NCBI GenBank assembly: GCA_951406725.2
Contig: OX597820.1
Coordinates: 12,276,001-12,340,000 of the forward strand
Reading direction: 5' to 3'
Source: Octopus vulgaris
Lineage: Eukaryota
DNA length: 64,000 nt
Positions 4,166 to 64,000 of this stretch are shown here, piece after piece. The position numbers and the translations under genes were made by a program. Below the pieces are notes generated by a model that saw only the letters and a program-made list of their open reading frames with translations, was not told the origin of the DNA and did no database searches. Positions within the stretch are counted from its first letter, which is position 1, and each line of letters begins with the position of its first letter.

Positions 4166-5142
4166 CATATATATACATACATATATCCTGCAGGACAAAA
4201 ATTGCTAACAATGCTATATATTTGCATAGGAGTTAAATGTATTCTCTCTATTGTTCCGCTATAAATTGGAATTCTTTTCTTTCTCTTATTATCAGGTAAC
4301 AGCAAAGGAATATCAAGTGAAAAGAAAACGAAACACAAATCACCACCACAAAGAAGTTCAATATCAGTGCAAACCAAAGCAATACCAATATAAAACGAAC
4401 CAAGCTAGATTAAAGTCAATCAAAACAAACCAGATATATTTGACAAAATTTCTGTATAAGGATACTTTACTGTTAGCGGCTTTGATGTCTTCCCTCAGTG
4501 GATATTACGGGATTTTCAGCGCTTATCCTTATATGGAAGCAGGTTAGTTCTCGATATTTTAATATCTTTGTTTAGTCGAATTTACATTTTATCTGCATTT
4601 GTTCTACAAATTCATTTTCAACATCAATATATACATAAACAAGGAATTGTGCTTATAGTTTTCTATCTGCAACTTTGTATTTGTAACATTCTGACAATTT
4701 ATTAAATGTACAATTTATATACATTTAACTATAATACGGGGAAATAATATTATAAGCAATTTGACAAATATCTACGTCATCCATTTGGAACTGTTGTCCA
4801 TTACATTTACGTAATAGGCTTTGTTGCAGAAATGAAGACGGCTTTTTTGTTGTTATTGAAATCACATTGCTTTGCTTATTAACATTATTTTCTAAAGATA
4901 ATTTTGCAATTATTAATGACACAATGATGCACAAATTCATAAGCAAATGCACGCACACGCGCACAGACACACACATATATGTACATATGTTTTATATACA
5001 CACATATATATTAAATATTGTAATAAATAATATAATATTGCATAACAGTATTATACATATATATGTATATTTTCAAAATGTAATTACATGTGAATCGTTG
5101 GAGATTTTCTTCCTCAGTCTTACACTCTATTGGTCTTTCCTT

Positions 5143-5176
5143 TTTCCGAAGAAGAGCGTCTGCTCGAAACGTTAAA
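5143..5176 (+). ncRNA. Minimal type I hammerhead-ribozyme-like motif (CCGAAGA core) in a solo PLE terminal-repeat remnant (~5090-5280)
   Basis: TTT-CCGAAGA-A-GAGC-GTCT-GCTC-GAAA-CG-TT-AAA, the same layout as the motif in the PLE 3' end at 61438-61475. Confidence 0.65.
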
Positions 5177-5296
5177 CCGTCTTTCTTTCCTCCTCTGAGC
5201 GTCTGTTAATACTTTACATGTACCCATGTATCATGTCCTCGCGTTGTTGTGTTTTTTGTGTTTGTTCTTCTTTTTGGGATTAACTCTCTCTCTCTC

Positions 5297-23129: not shown

Positions 23130-25500
23130 CTGTGTTAGTTATTATTTGGTCAAGATAAAGAGGTATACAATAAGTAAACGTTGGTTAACATTGGCATTCT
23201 TCTTTCTATGTAAGAATATTTTACCATTATAGAATTTTGTACAAACGATCAGCTCGTAATTTTAACAAACTGTATGAGGCAATCAGATGTTCCCAATCAG
23301 AATGTTATGACATGCATAGAATTCTGCTGATCATCTTTGATGAATTTTGTTCACTTTTAATATGTGGAGAATCTGTACATAATTTTGTGAGTAGTCTGAT
23401 ATTCGTTTTATTACCTCATACTGTTCTGCCAGTACATTAGGACATATGCCATTATGAAAATAATCAAGGTTCTCATTAGTTGTCACTAGCTTGCAAAAGA
23501 CAATAAAGGTGTGAACGCGTCAGATATAGCAAGTTCAAACTGGTTGTTCAAAAAGTTTTCAGGAACACAAAATACCTATTTACGAATGAAAACACTAAAA
23601 CTTCTGCGATCCACATCAAATTGATGTCTTTGACACTATTTTTTTTTTCAATCCTCAGTTAGAAATTTAGCTCTGTTCTATCGATTTAAGTAAGCAATGC
23701 TTCTTTTCAACCTGCTAGTAGCAGTTTCTTTATTAACCACTTGACTGCTTTGAGAAAAACCTGAACTTCTTGCGTAATGTCTGCTAATTGTAATGCTACC
23801 AGTTTGAAGCCTGTGCTGAAAAGAAAAATATAAAGAAAATTTGCTGTAAAGCGTATTGTCTACGGCAGTTATAAATTTCCCTAAGATTTCAGCTTGGTTT
23901 ACGTTACTTTGTTGTGACTAGGTAGCTGATGTTTTCCATGAGACCAGAACACGAGATATGTTAAGAATTTAATTCATTTCACTCGCAAACCTTGTAGGAG
24001 TTGCGTTAAATAAGATGAAGATATTGTTACAATTTGCTCCAGCACTGAGTGTTTTTCGTGTTGGCGACTGAAAAAAAGAATGTAGGCAATTGCACCAACT
24101 TTTGCACTCATATGCTGAATTTTTTAGTCTAACTTGCAGTTATTTTTGAATGCAAGCAACTACTGCACTTACTGATTTAGGCAATCTGATGGAAGTTTAA
24201 AATGAGATTTGCAGTCGAGCCAGTCTAGTTTAGTTTATACAGTAGCTTGTAAACATTAACATTTGAAAACCTGGATGGATGTAATACATTTCTAAATCTC
24301 TCAGAGAGATCTATGCACTAGTTACACGATAAAGTGACAGTATATTGTCAACTTAATGTGACAGTCTCATGAAAGGGAAGAATGTTACTGTTATTTAGCC
24401 CTATGAAACACCGTTTCCTGTTTGACTTGACACATTTCCTGTCAAGTCCTTACGTTTTCAAAGTGGAGACAAGCACCTCCACCCAGCAAAGCCAGCATCC
24501 AAGAGTAGTTTCAGAGTCATTGCTCATCATCAGTCTGGAGTAGCACGGCTTGCTAGCTGTCGATGCCTATCCGCCTCTGAAAACATATACGTTTCAAGTG
24601 AAATAAATCACTGACTTTTGAAAATATTATTTCTATTTTCAAAAATCAGTGAATGCTACTCCAGACTGATGAGCAATGACACTGAAACTAATCTCCGAGT
24701 GCTGGCTTTGCTGGGTGGAGATGCTTGTCTCCACTTTGAAAACATGAGAACACAGGAAATGTGTCATGTCCAACAGGAAACGGTGTTTCCTAGGTCTGAA
24801 TAACAGTAGCATTCTTCCCTTTCATAGGACTGTCACATTAAGTTGAGAACATACTATAACTCTACAGGACGGATGTGTTGGAATTCGAATCTAGCATCTT
24901 CATATAAACGGAAGGTTTATTAGTGAAAGTCTTCTGCATTTCAGAAGCTAGTATCCTGGATAACCACTGTGTGGTAAGCATGAGTATCGAGGCATCATTG
25001 ATTCATCCTTTCACTAATTATGTCATAAAGTTGTTTGTTTGTATTCCGCGCTGTGTGCAAAAATAGATCTTTAGATGCATTTTCAATTTCATTTAAAGAA
25101 AATATTAACTTTGTTTTCACATGTATTTCATGTATAATATGCTATATGTGGTTGCTTAAAAACTGCTTCCCTATACCTTGTATCCTGTTCTGTGTAAATG
25201 GTAAGTGTCGGTTGATACATTACGGCATGGTGTTTCAGTATCGTCGCTGCAAGAAGGGATATTTTAAGATATTGCATTCTCTCCGTTGCATTTTATTATC
25301 TGATTCACACTGGTACACCACTAGGTGAATTTTCTGCGACATACTCCATCAAAACAATTTTTGCATTCACTCTTATATTCTTTGCTGCTGATAAATTATA
25401 ATTAATTTATGCCTCTGACCTTTCGGGTCTGATAGATTATAGTACAACTTCCAAAATTAAAAACACAAATATTAACAGTTTTTTCTGCATAGAGTCGTGG
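23130..25500 (-). mobile_element. Highly decayed hAT-like transposase, interrupted by the fold-back at 24333-24861
   Basis: Minus-strand peptides TRYREAV..NH..HE, NDASILMLTTQWLSRILASEM and C-terminal SRILCMS*HSDWEHLIASYSLLK..MPML resemble the hAT dimerization motif (HSAxxERxxS). Many stops; no TIR found. Confidence 0.5.
24333..24861. repeat. Fold-back of two ~210-bp head-to-head arms (24333-24545, 24654-24861), each with a decayed hammerhead-like motif; probable inverted PLE terminal repeats
   Basis: The arms are reverse complements over their full length. The right arm has GCTACTCCAGA-CTGATGA-GCAATGACACT-GAAAC-TAATC-TCCGAGTGC. The spacer has its own hairpin at 24609-24651. Confidence 0.85.
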
Positions 25501-37439: not shown

Positions 37440-37675
37440 CTTTATTTTAAGCAGCAGAAAATTCAACAAATTCTGTTATGAGTTTCTCGTTCGTTATCAG
37501 ACAGTTTTTGCTAGAATTCTAGCAAAAACTGTCTGATGAACGGCAACGAGAAACTCAGAGTAACAGATTTTGTTGAATTTTCTGCTGCTTAAAATAAAGC
37601 ATATTACTCTACCACTGGTATTTGAGTACTCTTTTTTCCACCTTGTTTCACATTTATGTGTTTACTCCGGTCTAT
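37440..37675. repeat. Spacerless palindrome (37440-37599) centred on GAATTC; probable inverted PLE terminal repeat, with the right arm extending to ~37675
   Basis: ...CAGACAGTTTTTGCTAGAA|TTCTAGCAAAAACTGTCTG...; the ~80-bp arms are reverse-complementary with a few small indels. Confidence 0.9.
37529..37566 (+). ncRNA. Minimal type I hammerhead-ribozyme-like motif with canonical core
   Basis: Stem I CTGT/ACAG, core CTGATGA, short stem II (CG-GCAA-CG), GAAA, stem III ACTC-A-GAGT, predicted cleavage after GUA. The stem II closing pair is imperfect. Confidence 0.7.
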
Positions 37676-40700: not shown

Positions 40701-43700
40701 AAAATATAAATTTTTACTTGCATGGTCTCTAATAATGCATTAATGTCTTCTGTCCCTCTCCCTCTTCCTCTCTCCCCTCTCTCCCTCCCCATCTCTCTCC
40801 TTCCCATCTCTCTCCTTCCCCACTCCCTCCCCCGTCTCCCACCCCCTCTCTCTATATATAGATAGATAGAGAAAGAGGGTGAGAGAGAGAGATCACAAAA
40901 GACGGCGTTATTCATGAATAATGATAGTAATTTCATTTGAATTTTGTGTGTGCTTGTTGCTGGGTGTTTATTGAGAAAAGTATGATATAACTAGAGATTA
41001 TGTTACATAACCTGACTTCTACACTCGAGTGAATTTTCAGAATAGAATCAATGAAAATGTAGCAACCGCAATGTGCCGTTCTAATCTAGATCATCCCACT
41101 TATGCTATTGACGCAAAGGTGGTTACGTTTTTAAGTGTCTTTCATAAGCTATGTAACACAAGTTAAGAGCCACATGAATAGGTTAATGTGTCTTAACTTG
41201 TGTTCGTTATATTGATATCAATATTTCTTTTTAATGCTTAGTATACTTAAGCATACAAAAGTCATGTATTCAATTTCCAACCATTTTGCTTTATATTCTA
41301 ACCAAGATTGATTTTTTCCGCTATGATTTTCGAAAAATGTAGACACTGTTAAAACTAAATGCTTAGTAATAATCCTTTCTACTCTAGGTACAAGGTCCAT
41401 TGAATCCTAATAATATCGACAGGGAAAAAACAATGTTATTTTTGTAAATGTATATTCATTCATTGATAACTATTTCTCGCATAACTTGTTCTTCATTATA
41501 GTTACATATACTAATTTTTAGTCTTATTTTTCATTTGATGTCTCATTTGTTTAGTAGAAGTTGCGTGGGATACTATTACTAGAAGTTCAAGAAGTACATT
41601 TATAATATATAACTGTATGTTTTGCTCTAATAAATTAGCATTATAGAAAGAAAGAAATTATACCATTCACGAGCGTTATTTTAAAATCTTGCATTCAAAA
41701 AGAACTTATATAATTAGTACCTACAGTCAGACCTGAAAAGAGATATGGGTTGTTTATTTGGCATAGCCCCAAGATTTTGAGAAGGGATTTTTTCTGCCCT
41801 CTGTTACAGGTAAGAAGGGACTCTTGGGTGAAGAATTAACTTTTTAACGAATTGTTCCATTTTAAGTTTCTTCTGTTTCTTGTATGTAAATTATGCCCCC
41901 TATGTGTGTGCTTGGCATAAATCACACATTACTTAAAGACTACGTTAAAACGTGTTCCTACATTTTATATCTTGCCTGGATTCATTAACAGTTGAAATCA
42001 GCTTTTACATACTCTTCTCAGGCCTGACTTCAGAGCTCAACGCCTTTATTGCTTTGGTCAATATATCAACCATTTAAGGTGAGGAGAAAATGTAGTACAT
42101 CGCAAGCGAAAAAACAACAAAACTTTTCATCGTGTCTTTTACCTTTTGGGACTGAAGTTTCCCCCCCAGTCCATTCCGTCATAGGTCATGCCAGTGTCAC
42201 ATGGTATAAACTCTGATGTAAACAATCTTGGTCTTATCTCTGAGACTGTTTTTACATTAATGATCGTCTTGGTGCAATCTCTAAAAAAAAAAAAACACAC
42301 TGTTTACAGTTGACACTAATTTTGCTTTTTCATTAACCTTTCGTACACATGACTCATCCAAACATATCAAAACATCTTGCATGAGTTGAGAGAATAGGGT
42401 ATCCACTATGCATTATTCGGCATGCTAGAAATTGCACCTAAATCCCTAATTGACTAATAAGGAAATTTGAATAATAATCTTTCCAACACATTCTGATTAG
42501 TTAGTATTCTAAAATTTAAGAATATGTTTGTTGATGAAGTGCTATTAAAATTCATAAACGTATCTCAGTCTATAGAAGATGAAGAAAATAAATTATGTGA
42601 GGAAACAATTCCTACTTCTTGATAGAAGATGGCAATTATCGTCAATTAACATTTTGTGAAATTTTCTAGAGAACACATTTGATAATTAACTTACCAATAT
42701 TACAAGTTAACAGTAATTTCAAATAGTTATGTTGAAATAGAATATTAAAATAAAGAGGTTCAATTTAGTTAGGAAACTACAAAAATATAGAAAACGAGAA
42801 CGGTCTATTGTACCAAACATTTAAACTTTTAAATTTACAAAACATCAAAATATACTATTGTTGCTATGTACATAAATATATAAGGAGTAACACATACATG
42901 CATACAAATATGAACAGTTAGCATTTTTGAATTTCTATTATCTTTCTGATTCTCACAATAAACTTGAAATGGTACTATAAGATATTCGATGCGCAAAATT
43001 ACATACAAACTAAATTTCGTGACAAAGGAACATGCTCAATTATATTGAGCTCTGAATATTATTGGTAGCTATATTATCGACCAAGAGGCGATACAAAATC
43101 AGTTATGATAAGAATTGTGTTGCAGCTAAGTAAACAGCTTAAATATATAAAAATATATAGTAATACTGATAAAAATATCAAGTTTCATTGGTGCCAAGGC
43201 TATGTGGTTAGGAAATTCTTTTGATAACTATATCGTGTACAATCCTGCTGTCCCAGAAAGACTTAATAAAGACTTGTGAATAAATTTCGCTGATGGGAAC
43301 TGTGTCACATCCTATTTGTGTTTCCATGTGATCGATTACCCAGCTCCACACCACTACTCTAAGCATTTCCGTGTTTGAATTAAGGCTTGGTTTTTCAGTG
43401 AGAAGATAATCGTCTTTGTAAAATATGTATGCAGTGTTGTTAAATGTTGACTGATACTACTCTAGTTTTAGAGTATTAAGCAATTTTCCTACGATGTGTT
43501 TATATCATATTAATAATGTTTAGCTCAGTTCATTTTATTATGGTTATTGGTATAATTAAATTCAATCAGTTATAGCAAATATAAATTCAAAAAAATTCCC
43601 CTTTGTAATCGAATTCCCGCGTACTACTTATCACTCAGGTAGTCTTGCTACAATATCGAATATAGTCCCTCTGTTATTATAACCGCATTTCTGCTTTAGA

Positions 43701-60839: not shown

Positions 60840-61258
60840 GGCGCAGGAGTGGCTGTGTGGTAAGTAGCTTGCTAACCAACCACATGGTTGCGGGTTCAGT
60901 CCCACTGCGTGGCATCTTGGGCAAGTGTCTTCTGCTATAGCCCCGGGCCGACCAATGCCTTGTGAGTGGATTTGGTAGACGGAAACTGAAAGAAGCCTGT
61001 CGTATATATGTATGTATATATATGTGTGTGTGTGTGTTTGTGTGTCTGTGTTTGTCCCCCTAGCATTGCTTGACAACCGATGCTGGTGTGTCTACGTCCC
61101 CGCCACTTAGCGGTTCGGCAAAAGAGACCGATAGAATAAGTACTGGGCTTACAAAGAATAAGTTCCGGGGTCGATTTGATCGACTAAAGGCGGTGCTCCA
61201 GCATGGCCGCAGTCAAATGACTGAAACAAGTAAAAGAGTAAAGAGTAAGAGTAAGAGT
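60840..61258 (+). mobile_element. CORE-type SINE (OR2-like), full length
   Basis: Runs from the head GGCGCAGGAGTGGCTGTGTGG to a (AAGAGT)n tail. Confidence 0.9.
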
Positions 61259-61295: not shown

Positions 61296-61340
<45 letters not shown>

Positions 61341-61437
61341 CGGGAAGCTTTATGAAAATAGACAAAAGACGAAGGCAGGTGGAAAACAAACAAACAATTG
61401 TATTAGTATGGCGCTCAGGAAATATAAATAAAACAAG

Positions 61438-61475
61438 TCTTTAACGTTTCGAGCCTACGCTCTTCAACAGAAAGA
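61438..61475 (-). ncRNA. Minimal type I hammerhead ribozyme motif (CUGUUGA core variant) in the PLE 3' terminal repeat
   Basis: Minus strand reads TCTTT-CTGTTGA-A-GAGC-GTAG-GCTC-GAAA-CG-TT-AAAGA: 5-bp stem I, 4-bp stem II, loopless palindromic stem III (ACGT) and predicted cleavage after GUU. Confidence 0.8.
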
Positions 61476-61607
61476 TACACAGAGAGAAAAAAAACACAGA
61501 AAGGAGAGAAAAAAATGCGTGCAGTAACTAACGAATCAACATGGCGATCTGATTTCGGCCAGAGGTCAAAGATCAAACATGAGACGCGAGAGCGAAATAA
61601 GGGGAGA

Positions 61608-61995
61608 TAATAGGGTTGATAATAGGGTTGATAATAGGGTTGAATGACCAGCTATTAGTGCGTAGGAGGGGTCTGGACGTGTGTATGTATAGGGTTGGTG
61701 TATGTATTAGTATGTATTAGTATGTATAAGGGTGTGTGTGTGTGTGTGTGTATGAGAGAGTATTAGTGCGTAGGATAGTCTGGACGTGCGTATGTATGGG
61801 GTTGGTGTATGTATTAGTATGTATTAGTATGTATTAGTACGTATTAGTATGTATAAGTGTGTGTGTGTATGAGAGAGTATAAGTGCGTATGAGGGGTCTG
61901 GACGTGTGTATGTATAGGGTTGGTGTATGTATTAGTATGTATTAGTATGTATTAGTACGTATTAGTATGTATTAGTTGGTGTATGTATTAGTATG
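61608..61995. repeat. Nested tandem repeats in the PLE 3' UTR
   Basis: ATAGGGTTGATA three times, then three ~110-bp units starting TAGTGCGTA..GTCTGGACGTG with variable numbers of a TATGTATTAG decamer. Confidence 0.9.
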
Positions 61996-62000
61996 GCACA

Positions 62001-63572
62001 TCATATATGATGTGATGTGTAAAGTCGTGTGGTGTAGTGAGGAGAAGAGGGGGGAAGGGGAGAAGAGGGGGGAGGGGGGAATAAGAGGGGGAGGAGAGGG
62101 GGAAGATGAGAGGATGGGGGAGAGAGAGGAGGGGGAGAAGGAAGGGGAGGAGGGGGAGGAAGGAGGAAAGAGGGAGAGGGAGAGAGAGAAGGGGAGTGAG
62201 GGAGCAGAGGGAAGGGGAAGAGGGAAGGAGGGAGGGAGAAAGAGGGAAGAAGGGAAGGGGAGTAGGGGTGAAAGGATGAAGGACTGAAGAGGTAGGGGTC
62301 GGGGGAAAGGATAGGTGAGGAGGGGGAGGGGGTTAGATGAGGAGGGGGAGAGTTGAGACCAAATGGCGTATAAGAGCGAAGAGAGAAGATTAATTCCTGT
62401 TCACGGCGCAAACGGGAATCCGGATGGCCTCTGTGTAAGGACAAACCGAACACAGATAGGTGTTGCAAGGAGTGACCGGTGGAGCGGAAATGGCGTGAGA
62501 CCGGTGTGTCGTTCGCAAGGTGGATGTCACGAAGGTGTTCCGCGAACCGGTCAGCCAAGCGGCGTCCCGTTTGTCCGATGTACAAGGAATTGCAGAGAGA
62601 GCAAGAGACGCAATAGATAATATTGCTGGAGGTGCAGGTGAAGGAGTGGATGATGGGATAGGGTCGATGGTGGGTGCTAGTGAGGCGGGTGGTGTTGGAG
62701 AGGTAAGGGCAAGTGCGGCAACGTGGGCGGGAGCAGGGGAACGAGCCGGGTTGGGAGGTAGGGTCAGGGAAGGAGCTATGGACCAAAAGGTCTCGAAGGT
62801 TGTGGGCTCGTTTGAAAGAGGGGAGGGGTCGGTCAGGGAAGAGGTGTGAAGTGGACGGGTCGGACTGGAGATGACGGAAAGCTCGAAGAATGGTGCGTTG
62901 GAGACGTAGGGTCGTGGGGTGGTAAGTGAGGGGAAAAGGGAGGCGGGAGACTACAGGGCGGGTTCGGGGAGAGAGAGCAGATACACGGTCCACGGACCGT
63001 GCTCTGGCAAGGGCGGTGTGGATAGTGGTGAGGGGGTATCCACGTAGGGTGAAGTGGTGAGCCATACGTTGAGACTGAGTCTCAAAGTCATGGTCGTCAC
63101 TACAGAGCCTACGTAGACGGAGGAATTGGGAATAGGGGATGGAAAGCTTGGTGTGTTCTGGGTGGGAGGAAGAGAAGTTGAGGTATGTGTGTGAGTCTGT
63201 GTGTTTGTAGTGAATGGAGGTGGTAAGAGTGGAGTGAAGAATGCTAACCGAAATGTCGAGGAAGGAGACAGAGGTGTTGGAGATAGTGGAAGTGAAGTGG
63301 AGGGCTGGATGGAAAGATTGGACGAAAGAGAGGAAGGAATCTAGATGTTCACGGGAGAGTGAGGTGGCACCGATAATGTCGTCAATGTAACGACCATATA
63401 GTTCAGGAGTGGGACCAGTGAAATTAGAGAATATTTGGGCCTCAACATAGCCAACGAACAGGTTCGCATAGTTGGGGCCAATTCGCGTTCCCATGGCCAC
63501 TCCCGAGACCTGATGGTAGAACTCGCCCGCGAACGAGAAGCAGTTCAGAGTAAGGACAAGTTCGGCCAGACG
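62001..63572 (-). CDS. PLE polyprotein fragment: reverse transcriptase C-half, Cys linker and GIY-YIG endonuclease (no native start)
   Basis: The frame is open from RLAELVLTLNCFSFAGEFYHQVSGVAMGTRIGPNYANLF through RYIDD, FLD, CSRPRCRTC, FTCTSSNIIYCVSCSLC..YIGQTGRRLADRFAEH and REQELI..PFGLN. The last ~115 codons are Pro/Ser low complexity. Confidence 0.9.
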   Translation of the reverse strand, partial: RLAELVLTLNCFSFAGEFYHQVSGVAMGTRIGPNYANLFVGYVEAQIFSNFTGPTPELYGRYIDDIIGATSLSREHLDSFLSFVQSFHPALHFTSTISNTSVSFLDISVSILHSTLTTSIHYKHTDSHTYLNFSSSHPEHTKLSIPYSQFLRLRRLCSDDHDFETQSQRMAHHFTLRGYPLTTIHTALARARSVDRVSALSPRTRPVVSRLPFPLTYHPTTLRLQRTILRAFRHLQSDPSTSHLFPDRPLPSFKRAHNLRDLLVHSSFPDPTSQPGSFPCSRPRCRTCPYLSNTTRLTSTHHRPYPIIHSFTCTSSNIIYCVSCSLCNSLYIGQTGRRLADRFAEHLRDIHLANDTPVSRHFRSTGHSLQHLSVFGLSLHRGHPDSRLRREQELIFSLRSYTPFGLNSPPPHLTPSPSSPILSPDPYLFSPSSFHPYSPSLLPSFSLPPSLFPFPLLPHSPSLSPSPSFLLPPPPPLPSPPPLSPPSSHLPPLLPLLFPPPPSSPLPPSSPHYTTRLYTSHHI

Positions 63573-64000
63573 TATGTATGAAAGGGAGGGAAAACTACAA
63601 ATATTAGTACACTTTTCAAGACAGGATTGTCATGGGGAACTTTGCACTAAGTTAAATGAACGATAAATTGCGCCCCCGTAGTTTCTTTTGGGTCAGAACA
63701 GAATTGAAAAAACGAGAGAATGGCGTTGGCAGATTTTATTTGTATCATGTACATCCTTGTCATTGAGTATCTCTGTAGATTTTAATCAAGCAGAGCTGCT
63801 GTAGATATAATCATCTCTATTAGAGACACAGCGGCTAAAAAAATTTAGGGAGGTGTTTTAGTTAATTACATCAATCTCGCACCTCATCAGGTACGTATTT
63901 CAATGTAAAACAAAGTTAATTACGGCGGAATTTCAACTATCCGCGTGTCTCTGTCTACCTTCTATTTATACATGTATACTCACACACACACACACACACT

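What the first reader, a model, noticed from the sequence alone, without database searches (positions are those of the whole stretch)
61438..61475. Young PLE carries a minimal hammerhead with a non-canonical CUGUUGA core
All helices are perfect (TCTTT/AAAGA, GAGC/GCTC, palindromic ACGT stem III that implies dimeric folding, as known for PLE minimal hammerheads), yet the normally conserved A6 is U. The adjoining ORF has no stops or frameshifts through the RT and endonuclease, so the variant may be the functional family state rather than decay. With the CCGA variants this suggests a lineage of PLE ribozymes with relaxed cores, or motifs kept for protein recognition rather than catalysis.
Basis: partly seen in the sequence, partly recalled or inferred. 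Interest (0 to 1): 0.75.

Follow-up and report, generated by a model that had tools for sequence, protein, structure and literature searches.

The report
Retroelement hammerhead with family-wide A6U core
A large family of jumping genes in this animal genome carries a small hammerhead RNA motif in which one normally fixed core letter is changed (A to U) in nearly every copy while the rest of the motif has been kept through six subfamilies, so it is likely a slow but working self-cutting variant, though cutting is untested.

Summary
Observation confirmed. Window 61475-61438 (minus strand) is a minimal type I hammerhead with a CUGUUGA core, about 525 bases behind the ORF of a Neptune/Nematis-type Penelope-like element (PLE). 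U6 is the family state: 4,948 exact copies against 12 with A6. In copies picked by flank only, 77 of 79 have U6. Across six subfamilies only 3 of 38 motif columns change (N7, H17, one outer stem base) against 52 of 110 flank columns (p 5e-6). N7 and H17 are the positions a hammerhead leaves free. A sister lineage (8,364 matches, mostly CCGA) shows one compensatory stem I pair. Full-length elements carry two U6 motifs 4.5 kb apart, so a dimer is possible. Corrections: this copy is 5'-truncated and lacks RT motif A; position 6 was mixed (U 80, C 12, A 7, G 1) in the oldest subfamily, so U6 looks tolerated rather than proven selected. No sign of cleavage was found in insertion ends. Published A6 changes lower activity. 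Best reading: a slow, probably protein-assisted dimeric ribozyme (0.5); main rival: a non-cutting fold kept for protein binding (0.33). New variant of a known kind.

The parts
61438..61475 (-). Minimal type I hammerhead motif, core CUGUUGA (A6U), extra A after A9, 4-bp stem II, palindromic ACGU in place of stem III
61467..61467 (-). U6, the non-canonical core base
61442..61443 (-). Predicted cleavage site after GUU (U17 = 61443); inferred from hammerhead numbering, not observed
   Evidence: no junction excess
62001..63576 (-). 5'-truncated PLE ORF (residues 554 onward of a 1,076-aa protein): RT motifs B and C, CxxxxCxxC linker, GIY-YIG endonuclease, proline-rich tail
61476..62000 (-). 3' untranslated region with short tandem repeats; also found as the 5' pseudo-LTR of full-length copies
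61340..61437 (-). About 100-base tail behind the motif up to the element's 3' end; holds a GAGCG (61416-61412) kept in both sister lineages
61300..61339 (.). (TA)n run at the 3' junction, the usual target of this family
5141..5178 (+). Copy of the sister-lineage motif with CCGAAGA core (U4C, A6) and the same stem II

Best explanation
The 38 bases are a minimal type I hammerhead motif in the pseudo-LTR of a Penelope-like retroelement whose lineage carries U instead of A at core position 6, and it likely still cuts slowly after GUH, as a predicted dimer of the two motif copies in a tandem transcript and probably with help from the element's protein. Shown: the anatomy, the family-wide U6, conservation of the motif through six subfamilies, and two same-strand motifs about 4.5 kb apart in full-length elements. 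Inferred: the two ACGU palindromes pair to form stem III; the lone motif folds back into a closed hairpin in which U6 pairs with A15.1; PLE protein binding opens it; cleavage would trim element RNA out of read-through transcripts but is not needed for most insertions.
For: U6 4,948 versus A6 12 exact copies; 20,236 matches with positions 6-7 free, of which 362 are CTGA; 77 of 79 whole motifs among 94 flank-picked copies have U6. Six flank-defined subfamilies (105 of 113 copies assigned): 3 of 38 motif columns differ against 52 of 110 gap-free flank columns, Fisher p 5e-6, while the adjoining endonuclease of old copies is only about 57-74% identical to the young protein. The two core positions that change are N7 (U, G, A, C) and H17 (A, U); G17 occurs in only 91 copies spread over all N7 states. 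Contigs of runs labelled organisms C and D vary at the same places and not at U6. L219, L224 and L225 have two U6 motifs 4.47-4.53 kb apart. A natural A6C hammerhead cleaves slowly (PMC3088659) and at about 0.3/min in Mn2+ (PMC7151607). A PLE hammerhead cleaved only when PLE protein was added (PMC11167929); min-HHRs cleave weakly and only as multimers (PMC4209133).
Against: No cleavage was observed. In a full mutational scan of another hammerhead all single and double changes in the CUGA turn except the C3-G8 swap had low activity (PMC9901934, passages; the A6U value itself not seen). The monomer is predicted to close into a hairpin (pairing probability 0.98 for this copy; core open 0.016), and predicted two-strand folds were not the hammerhead dimer. 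5' junctions do not pile up at the cut site: 11 there against 8 at a control TA site among 46 loci read from the first 100 rows (p 0.65). Catalytic mutants of the anole PLE hammerhead did not affect insertion in vitro. A protein that binds the hammerhead fold could conserve the same positions.
Confidence: 0.5

Rival explanations
1. The motif no longer cuts. It is kept as a structural or protein-binding signal of the PLE RNA (hammerhead-like fold or the closed hairpin), and the two sister lineages each lost a catalytic-pocket base (A6U, U4C) because chemistry is no longer selected.
For: Two abundant sister lineages each depart from CUGA. Position 6 is mixed in the oldest subfamily: U 80, C 12, A 7, G 1 of the first 100 of 616, against 8 of 294 changes at six non-CpG sites (p 1e-7). 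Cleavage was dispensable for insertion in vitro; Naiads thrive without canonical motifs (PMC8557442). No junction excess. The loop GUAG is also invariant among subfamily majorities, which catalysis alone does not require.
Against: G8, G12, C3, G5, A9, A13, A14, A15.1 and U16.1 never change between subfamilies, while N7 and H17 change in the way catalysis allows and no G17 subfamily exists. A6C and U4C variants with residual activity are in print.
Confidence: 0.33
2. U6 is positively selected as a lock: it pairs with A15.1 (with U4-G16.2 and G5-C15.2) to hide the dimerisation palindrome, so that cutting occurs only when protein, a partner motif or a different metal ion opens it.
For: Probability of the U6-A15.1 pair is 0.95-0.98 in the youngest subfamilies and 0.4-0.6 in older ones; with A6 that pair is lost and the neighbouring G5-C15.2 pair is 0.12 or less in most sequences listed. 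The cost of opening the core rises to 2.5 kcal/mol in the youngest form. U6 stays fixed after the oldest subfamily (74 copies in S2-S6: 73 U, 1 G).
Against: Closed monomer hairpins are also predicted for the CCGACGA lineage (3.4 kcal/mol) and the canonical CUGAUGA family (0.95 kcal/mol) in another register, so they are not special to U6. About half of flank columns also stayed unchanged, so fixity of one site proves nothing. Energies are model values.
Confidence: 0.12
3. The motif is dead and merely hitchhikes with a successful element, or the U is a private mutation.
For: A6 changes are deleterious in vitro.
Against: U6 is in 4,948 exact copies and the motif is far more conserved than its flanks.
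Confidence: 0.05

Closest known systems
Minimal type I hammerheads (min-HHR) of metazoan PLE pseudo-LTRs (PMC4209133; main text parts 1-2 of 4 and supplement parts 1-2 of 3 read)
   Same: Position in the pLTR; short stem I; extra base between A9 and G10.1; G10.1-C11.1; palindromic C-G at 15.2/16.2 with no loop; non-G at 17; thousands of lone truncated copies.
   Different: All rows of their Fig. S3 (56 by its legend) have A6; their only core variant is U3-A8. Their descriptor fixed the catalytic boxes, so it could not have found U6.
A6C hammerhead of phage Bcep176 (PMC3088659 section 8; PMC7151607 parts 1-2 of 4 read)
   Same: Natural pyrimidine at position 6.
   Different: One phage sequence, C not U, shown active with Mn2+ preference; here a whole retroelement lineage, minimal dimer-type fold, activity untested.
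PAc hammerhead of the green anole Poseidon element (PMC11167929; passages and section 3 part 2 read)
   Same: PLE pLTR hammerhead; model for protein-assisted cleavage.
   Different: Poseidon clade, motif overlaps the start codon; here a Neptune/Nematis-type element with the motif about 760 bases upstream of the start codon in full-length copies.
Neptune/Nematis-type EN+ Penelope-like elements (PMC8557442; passages read)
   Same: C-terminal GIY-YIG, CX2-5CxxC linker, DKG motif, pseudo-LTR tandem layout, (TA)n targets.
   Different: Neptune versus Nematis was not resolved; no tree against reference elements was built.

Membership tests
Minimal type I hammerhead of PLEs | Stems I and II close a three-way junction, extra base after A9, G10.1-C11.1 pair | tested here: met
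   one compensatory stem I pair between sister lineages, stem II invariant
Minimal type I hammerhead of PLEs | Consensus core CUGANGA ... GAAA ... UH | tested here: not met
   Position 6 is U in the family; all other core positions match
Minimal type I hammerhead of PLEs | Palindromic 15.1-16.1 stretch allowing a dimer, with a second copy in the same unit | tested here: met
   ACGU invariant among subfamilies; two motifs in 3 of 20 long loci flanking the ORF and a 5' motif in a fourth. The window copy itself is alone
Minimal type I hammerhead of PLEs | Located in the pseudo-LTR of a PLE | tested here: met
Hammerhead ribozyme (catalytic) | Site-specific self-cleavage after NUH | not testable with these tools
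   Only contigs, no raw RNA reads; junction test negative and insensitive
Hammerhead ribozyme (Rfam) | Match to an Rfam hammerhead model | tested here: not met
   No hammerhead match at E<=1 in the window; the CCGA motif at 5146 was missed too, so the models may be blind to minimal forms
EN+ Penelope-like element, Neptune/Nematis type | Single ORF with RT, CX2-5CxxC linker and C-terminal GIY-YIG | tested here: met
   L229: 1,076-aa open ORF, RVT_1 E 1e-7, GIY-YIG weak (E 0.088), DKG at 374, linker at 834, YIG at 885
EN+ Penelope-like element, Neptune/Nematis type | Placement in the clade by RT phylogeny | not tested
   No labelled reference set at hand; homologue search gave unnamed RT proteins

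The most novel reading that the evidence does not exclude
U6 hammerheads are a recurring, working class of self-locked ribozymes of Penelope-like elements: U6 pairs with A15.1 to shut the lone motif, PLE protein or a partner motif unlocks it, and the class has arisen in more than one lineage (a second, unrelated family with CUGUUGA and a covarying 6-7-bp stem II is in metagenome contigs L312-L353) but is invisible to CUGANGA-based searches.
Probability: 0.2. Interest if true: 0.75.

Novelty: new variant of a known kind. Interest (0 to 1): 0.5.

Why it matters
What PLE hammerheads do is open: their in vitro activity is low and one tested motif was dispensable for insertion. Here a lineage of about 19,000 copies (94 of the first 100 of 20,236 matches) spread through six subfamilies with a change at a core base regarded as nearly fixed, next to a sister lineage with U4C and an unrelated canonical family in the same genome. 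That gives a natural three-way comparison: if U6 cuts, the natural hammerhead core is wider than descriptors assume and counts of PLE hammerheads are too low; if it does not, selection keeps the fold for something other than cutting.

Tried and rejected
Private mutation: rejected. A6 copies as a hidden active subfamily: the A6 copies picked by search scatter among U6 subfamilies on a flank-only tree (28 changes for 42 rows; that set was enriched for A6 by design, support rough). C6 or A6 clades in the oldest subfamily: not resolved (49 rows, star-like tree; C6 clustering 8 of 500 shuffles, A6 137 of 500). Idea that U4C and A6U strengthen the same alternative helix: rejected, CCGAAGA gives 0.08 in that register. 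Genomic footprint of cleavage: none (11 versus 8), confounded by TA microhomology, no positive control run on the canonical family. Sequencing runs: no RNA holder listed on record, contigs only, no information on ends. Rfam: no match. Pfam on the whole window frame: nothing at 1e-3, weak RT and GIY-YIG when trimmed. Metagenome scan: 0 of 46 hits passed a strict test of 3 contiguous pairs in both stems, and none matched the Neptune-type protein by tblastn; the pattern forced AAA after H17, which limits stem I. Literature: ten searches listed no report of a natural A6U hammerhead; the two papers holding 'A6U' and 'hammerhead' concern other RNAs by their titles and were not opened. Not held: PMC5785218 (small PLE hammerhead variants that cleave as dimers), PMC5850863 (Terminons), PMC3334697, PMC4008931; the first two could already describe position-6 variants. 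Supplement search of PMC8557442 showed 4 of 50 occurrences, none in a hammerhead.

Full report
Observation. The minus strand at 61475-61438 reads stem I TCTTT, core CTGTTGA, an extra A, stem II GAGC-GTAG-GCTC, GAAA, CGT, T, AAAGA. The predicted cut lies between 61443 and 61442. Rfam finds no hammerhead in the window. The genome is 2.8 Gb; I recognise the SINE next to the element as octopus-like from memory, not from a call.

The element. The motif lies about 525 bases behind an open frame (62001-63629) and about 100 bases before the element's 3' end at a (TA)n run. Twenty loci around the best RT matches gave near full-length copies. [quoted passage not shown] The window copy matches it from residue 554 at 98.9% and lacks RT motif A, so it is a young but non-autonomous truncated copy. 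L219, L224 and L225 carry the same U6 motif in both pseudo-LTRs, 4.47-4.53 kb apart on one strand; no canonical partner is built into the unit.

U6 is the family state. The exact 32-mer occurs 4,948 times with U6 and 12 times with A6. With positions 6, 7 and the loop free there are 20,236 matches; 362 have CTGA. Of the first 100 listed, 94 have U6, 4 A6 and 2 C6 (counted by eye). To avoid selecting on the motif I picked copies by a downstream flank pattern (18,659 matches), took the first 100 places and fetched 98 of them. The script recovered 94 copies; 79 hold a whole motif and 15 are truncated, gapped or decayed. Of the 79, 77 have U6, one A and one G, the same background as other core sites, while N7 is U 32, A 24, C 15, G 8 and position 17 is A 64, U 14, C 1. 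Contigs from four runs, two labelled as other organisms (C, D), vary within the motif at N7, H17 and one loop base only (5% threshold).

Selection on the motif after the change. Of 113 copies, 105 fell into six subfamilies defined by my own flank rules. Subfamily majorities differ at 3 of 38 motif columns (N7, H17, the outer stem I base) and at 52 of 110 gap-free flank columns, Fisher p 5e-6 (the upstream flank is low-complexity and aligns noisily; the downstream flank alone gives 53 of 107 with gaps). Some of these copies came from motif-based searches, but the flank-picked set shows the same picture. Endonuclease fragments next to old copies are about 57-74% identical to the young protein. 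G17, which hammerheads do not cleave after (established knowledge), occurs in 91 scattered copies. So the fold and every other core base were kept after A6 was lost.

History of position 6. In the oldest subfamily the first 100 of 616 matches have U 80, C 12, A 7, G 1 (by eye), more variable than six non-CpG motif sites (8 of 294; p 1e-7). A tree did not resolve C6 or A6 clades. The simplest reading is that constraint at position 6 relaxed early and U-bearing sources founded later subfamilies. Fixity of U6 since then is not proof of selection for U, since half of the flank columns also stayed put.

Sister and other families. A sister lineage shares stem II and parts of the 3' tail but has A6 with C4: 8,364 matches, 80 of the first 100 CCGA. 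Between the lineages one stem I pair switches C-G to G-C (8 versus 6 of 14 chosen rows, one event). An unrelated canonical CUGAUGA family with different stems makes up most of 7,964 further matches (control 56). In metagenome contigs 46 exact hits to a U6 pattern included three repeated low-GC families with 6-7-bp stems II. One, six loci, shows two compensatory changes in stem II and a bulged stem I. L353 and L321 have a GIY-YIG fragment within 1.5 kb, on the opposite strand. These are leads for independent origins, not proof; most other hits look like chance.

Folding. The lone motif is predicted to form a hairpin in which U4, G5, U6 and U7 pair with G16.2, C15.2, A15.1 and A14; probability 0.98 here, 0.4-0.6 with other N7, and mostly 0.12 or less with A6. 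The CCGACGA and canonical families close in another register, so a closed monomer is common to these motifs.

Cleavage evidence. None. Among 46 loci read by eye from the first 100 rows of a junction search, 11 start within a base or two of the cut site and 8 at the loop's TA, not different. Only contigs were served. The anole PLE study also saw no read ends at an active motif, so these tests are weak.

Literature. PMC4209133 defines min-HHRs; all Fig. S3 rows have A6 and the descriptor fixed the core. A6C is natural in phage Bcep176, slow in Mg2+ and about 0.3/min in Mn2+. A mutational scan found low activity for changes in the CUGA turn. The anole PLE motif cleaves only with protein and is dispensable for insertion in vitro. 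Also seen: passages of PMC6765202, PMC7229834 and PMC11014351 and part 1 of 5 of bioRxiv 10.64898/2026.07.22.740005. Ten searches listed no natural A6U report, but two key papers were not held, so novelty is provisional. An earlier AI note in this scan describes a fixed A6U core in another genome; it is unchecked and not independent support.

Verdict. A real, family-wide, conserved A6U variant of the PLE minimal hammerhead. It works like a min-HHR by anatomy and conservation pattern but fails the consensus at position 6, and catalysis is untested. Slow protein-assisted dimeric ribozyme 0.5; non-cutting signal 0.33; selected lock 0.12; dead 0.05. New variant of a known kind, interest 0.5.

Noticed in passing
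window 61412-61416 (-); L231-L260: A GAGCG 20-35 bases behind the cut site is kept in both sister lineages and repeats the 5' strand of stem II, so it could compete for GCUC; predicted probability 0.03-1.0 depending on copy. No equivalent seen in the canonical family.
   Followed up: partly
window 5141-5178 (+); G000 genome-wide: Sister lineage with U4C core: 8,364 matches, mostly CCGACGA with a 3-base loop, stem I swapped to GUUU/AAAC. Another copy lies just beyond the window end (L090:2906-2944).
   Followed up: partly
L121-L149: Abundant canonical min-HHR family (CUGAUGA, stems GACAC/GUGUU and GGCUG/CAGCC), a natural control; its ORF was not sought.
   Followed up: partly
L291-L302: Twelve of the first 100 copies of the oldest subfamily have CUGCUGA, the A6C core known from phage Bcep176.
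   Followed up: partly
L312, L318, L323, L324, L333, L346, L353; L319, L332, L343; L320, L321, L326, L352: Three repeated families in metagenome contigs with CUGUNGA cores and long stems II; two loci have a GIY-YIG fragment nearby on the opposite strand.
   Followed up: partly
window 62001-62345 (-): The ORF runs on through a variable C/T-rich stretch as a proline-rich tail; its frame and end differ between copies.
   Followed up: no
window about 61479-61484 and 61398-61403 (-): A possible distal helix UGUAU/AUACA encloses the motif in the predicted fold of young copies; not tested for covariation.
   Followed up: no
window 24430-24764, 37456-37583, 40823-40893: Long inverted repeats that score weakly against plant miRNA models, all below gathering score; probably MITE-like or inverted insertions.
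   Followed up: no
window about 60845-61240: A tRNA-like SINE lies directly beyond the (TA)n target of the element; family identity recalled as octopus-like, not tested.
   Followed up: no
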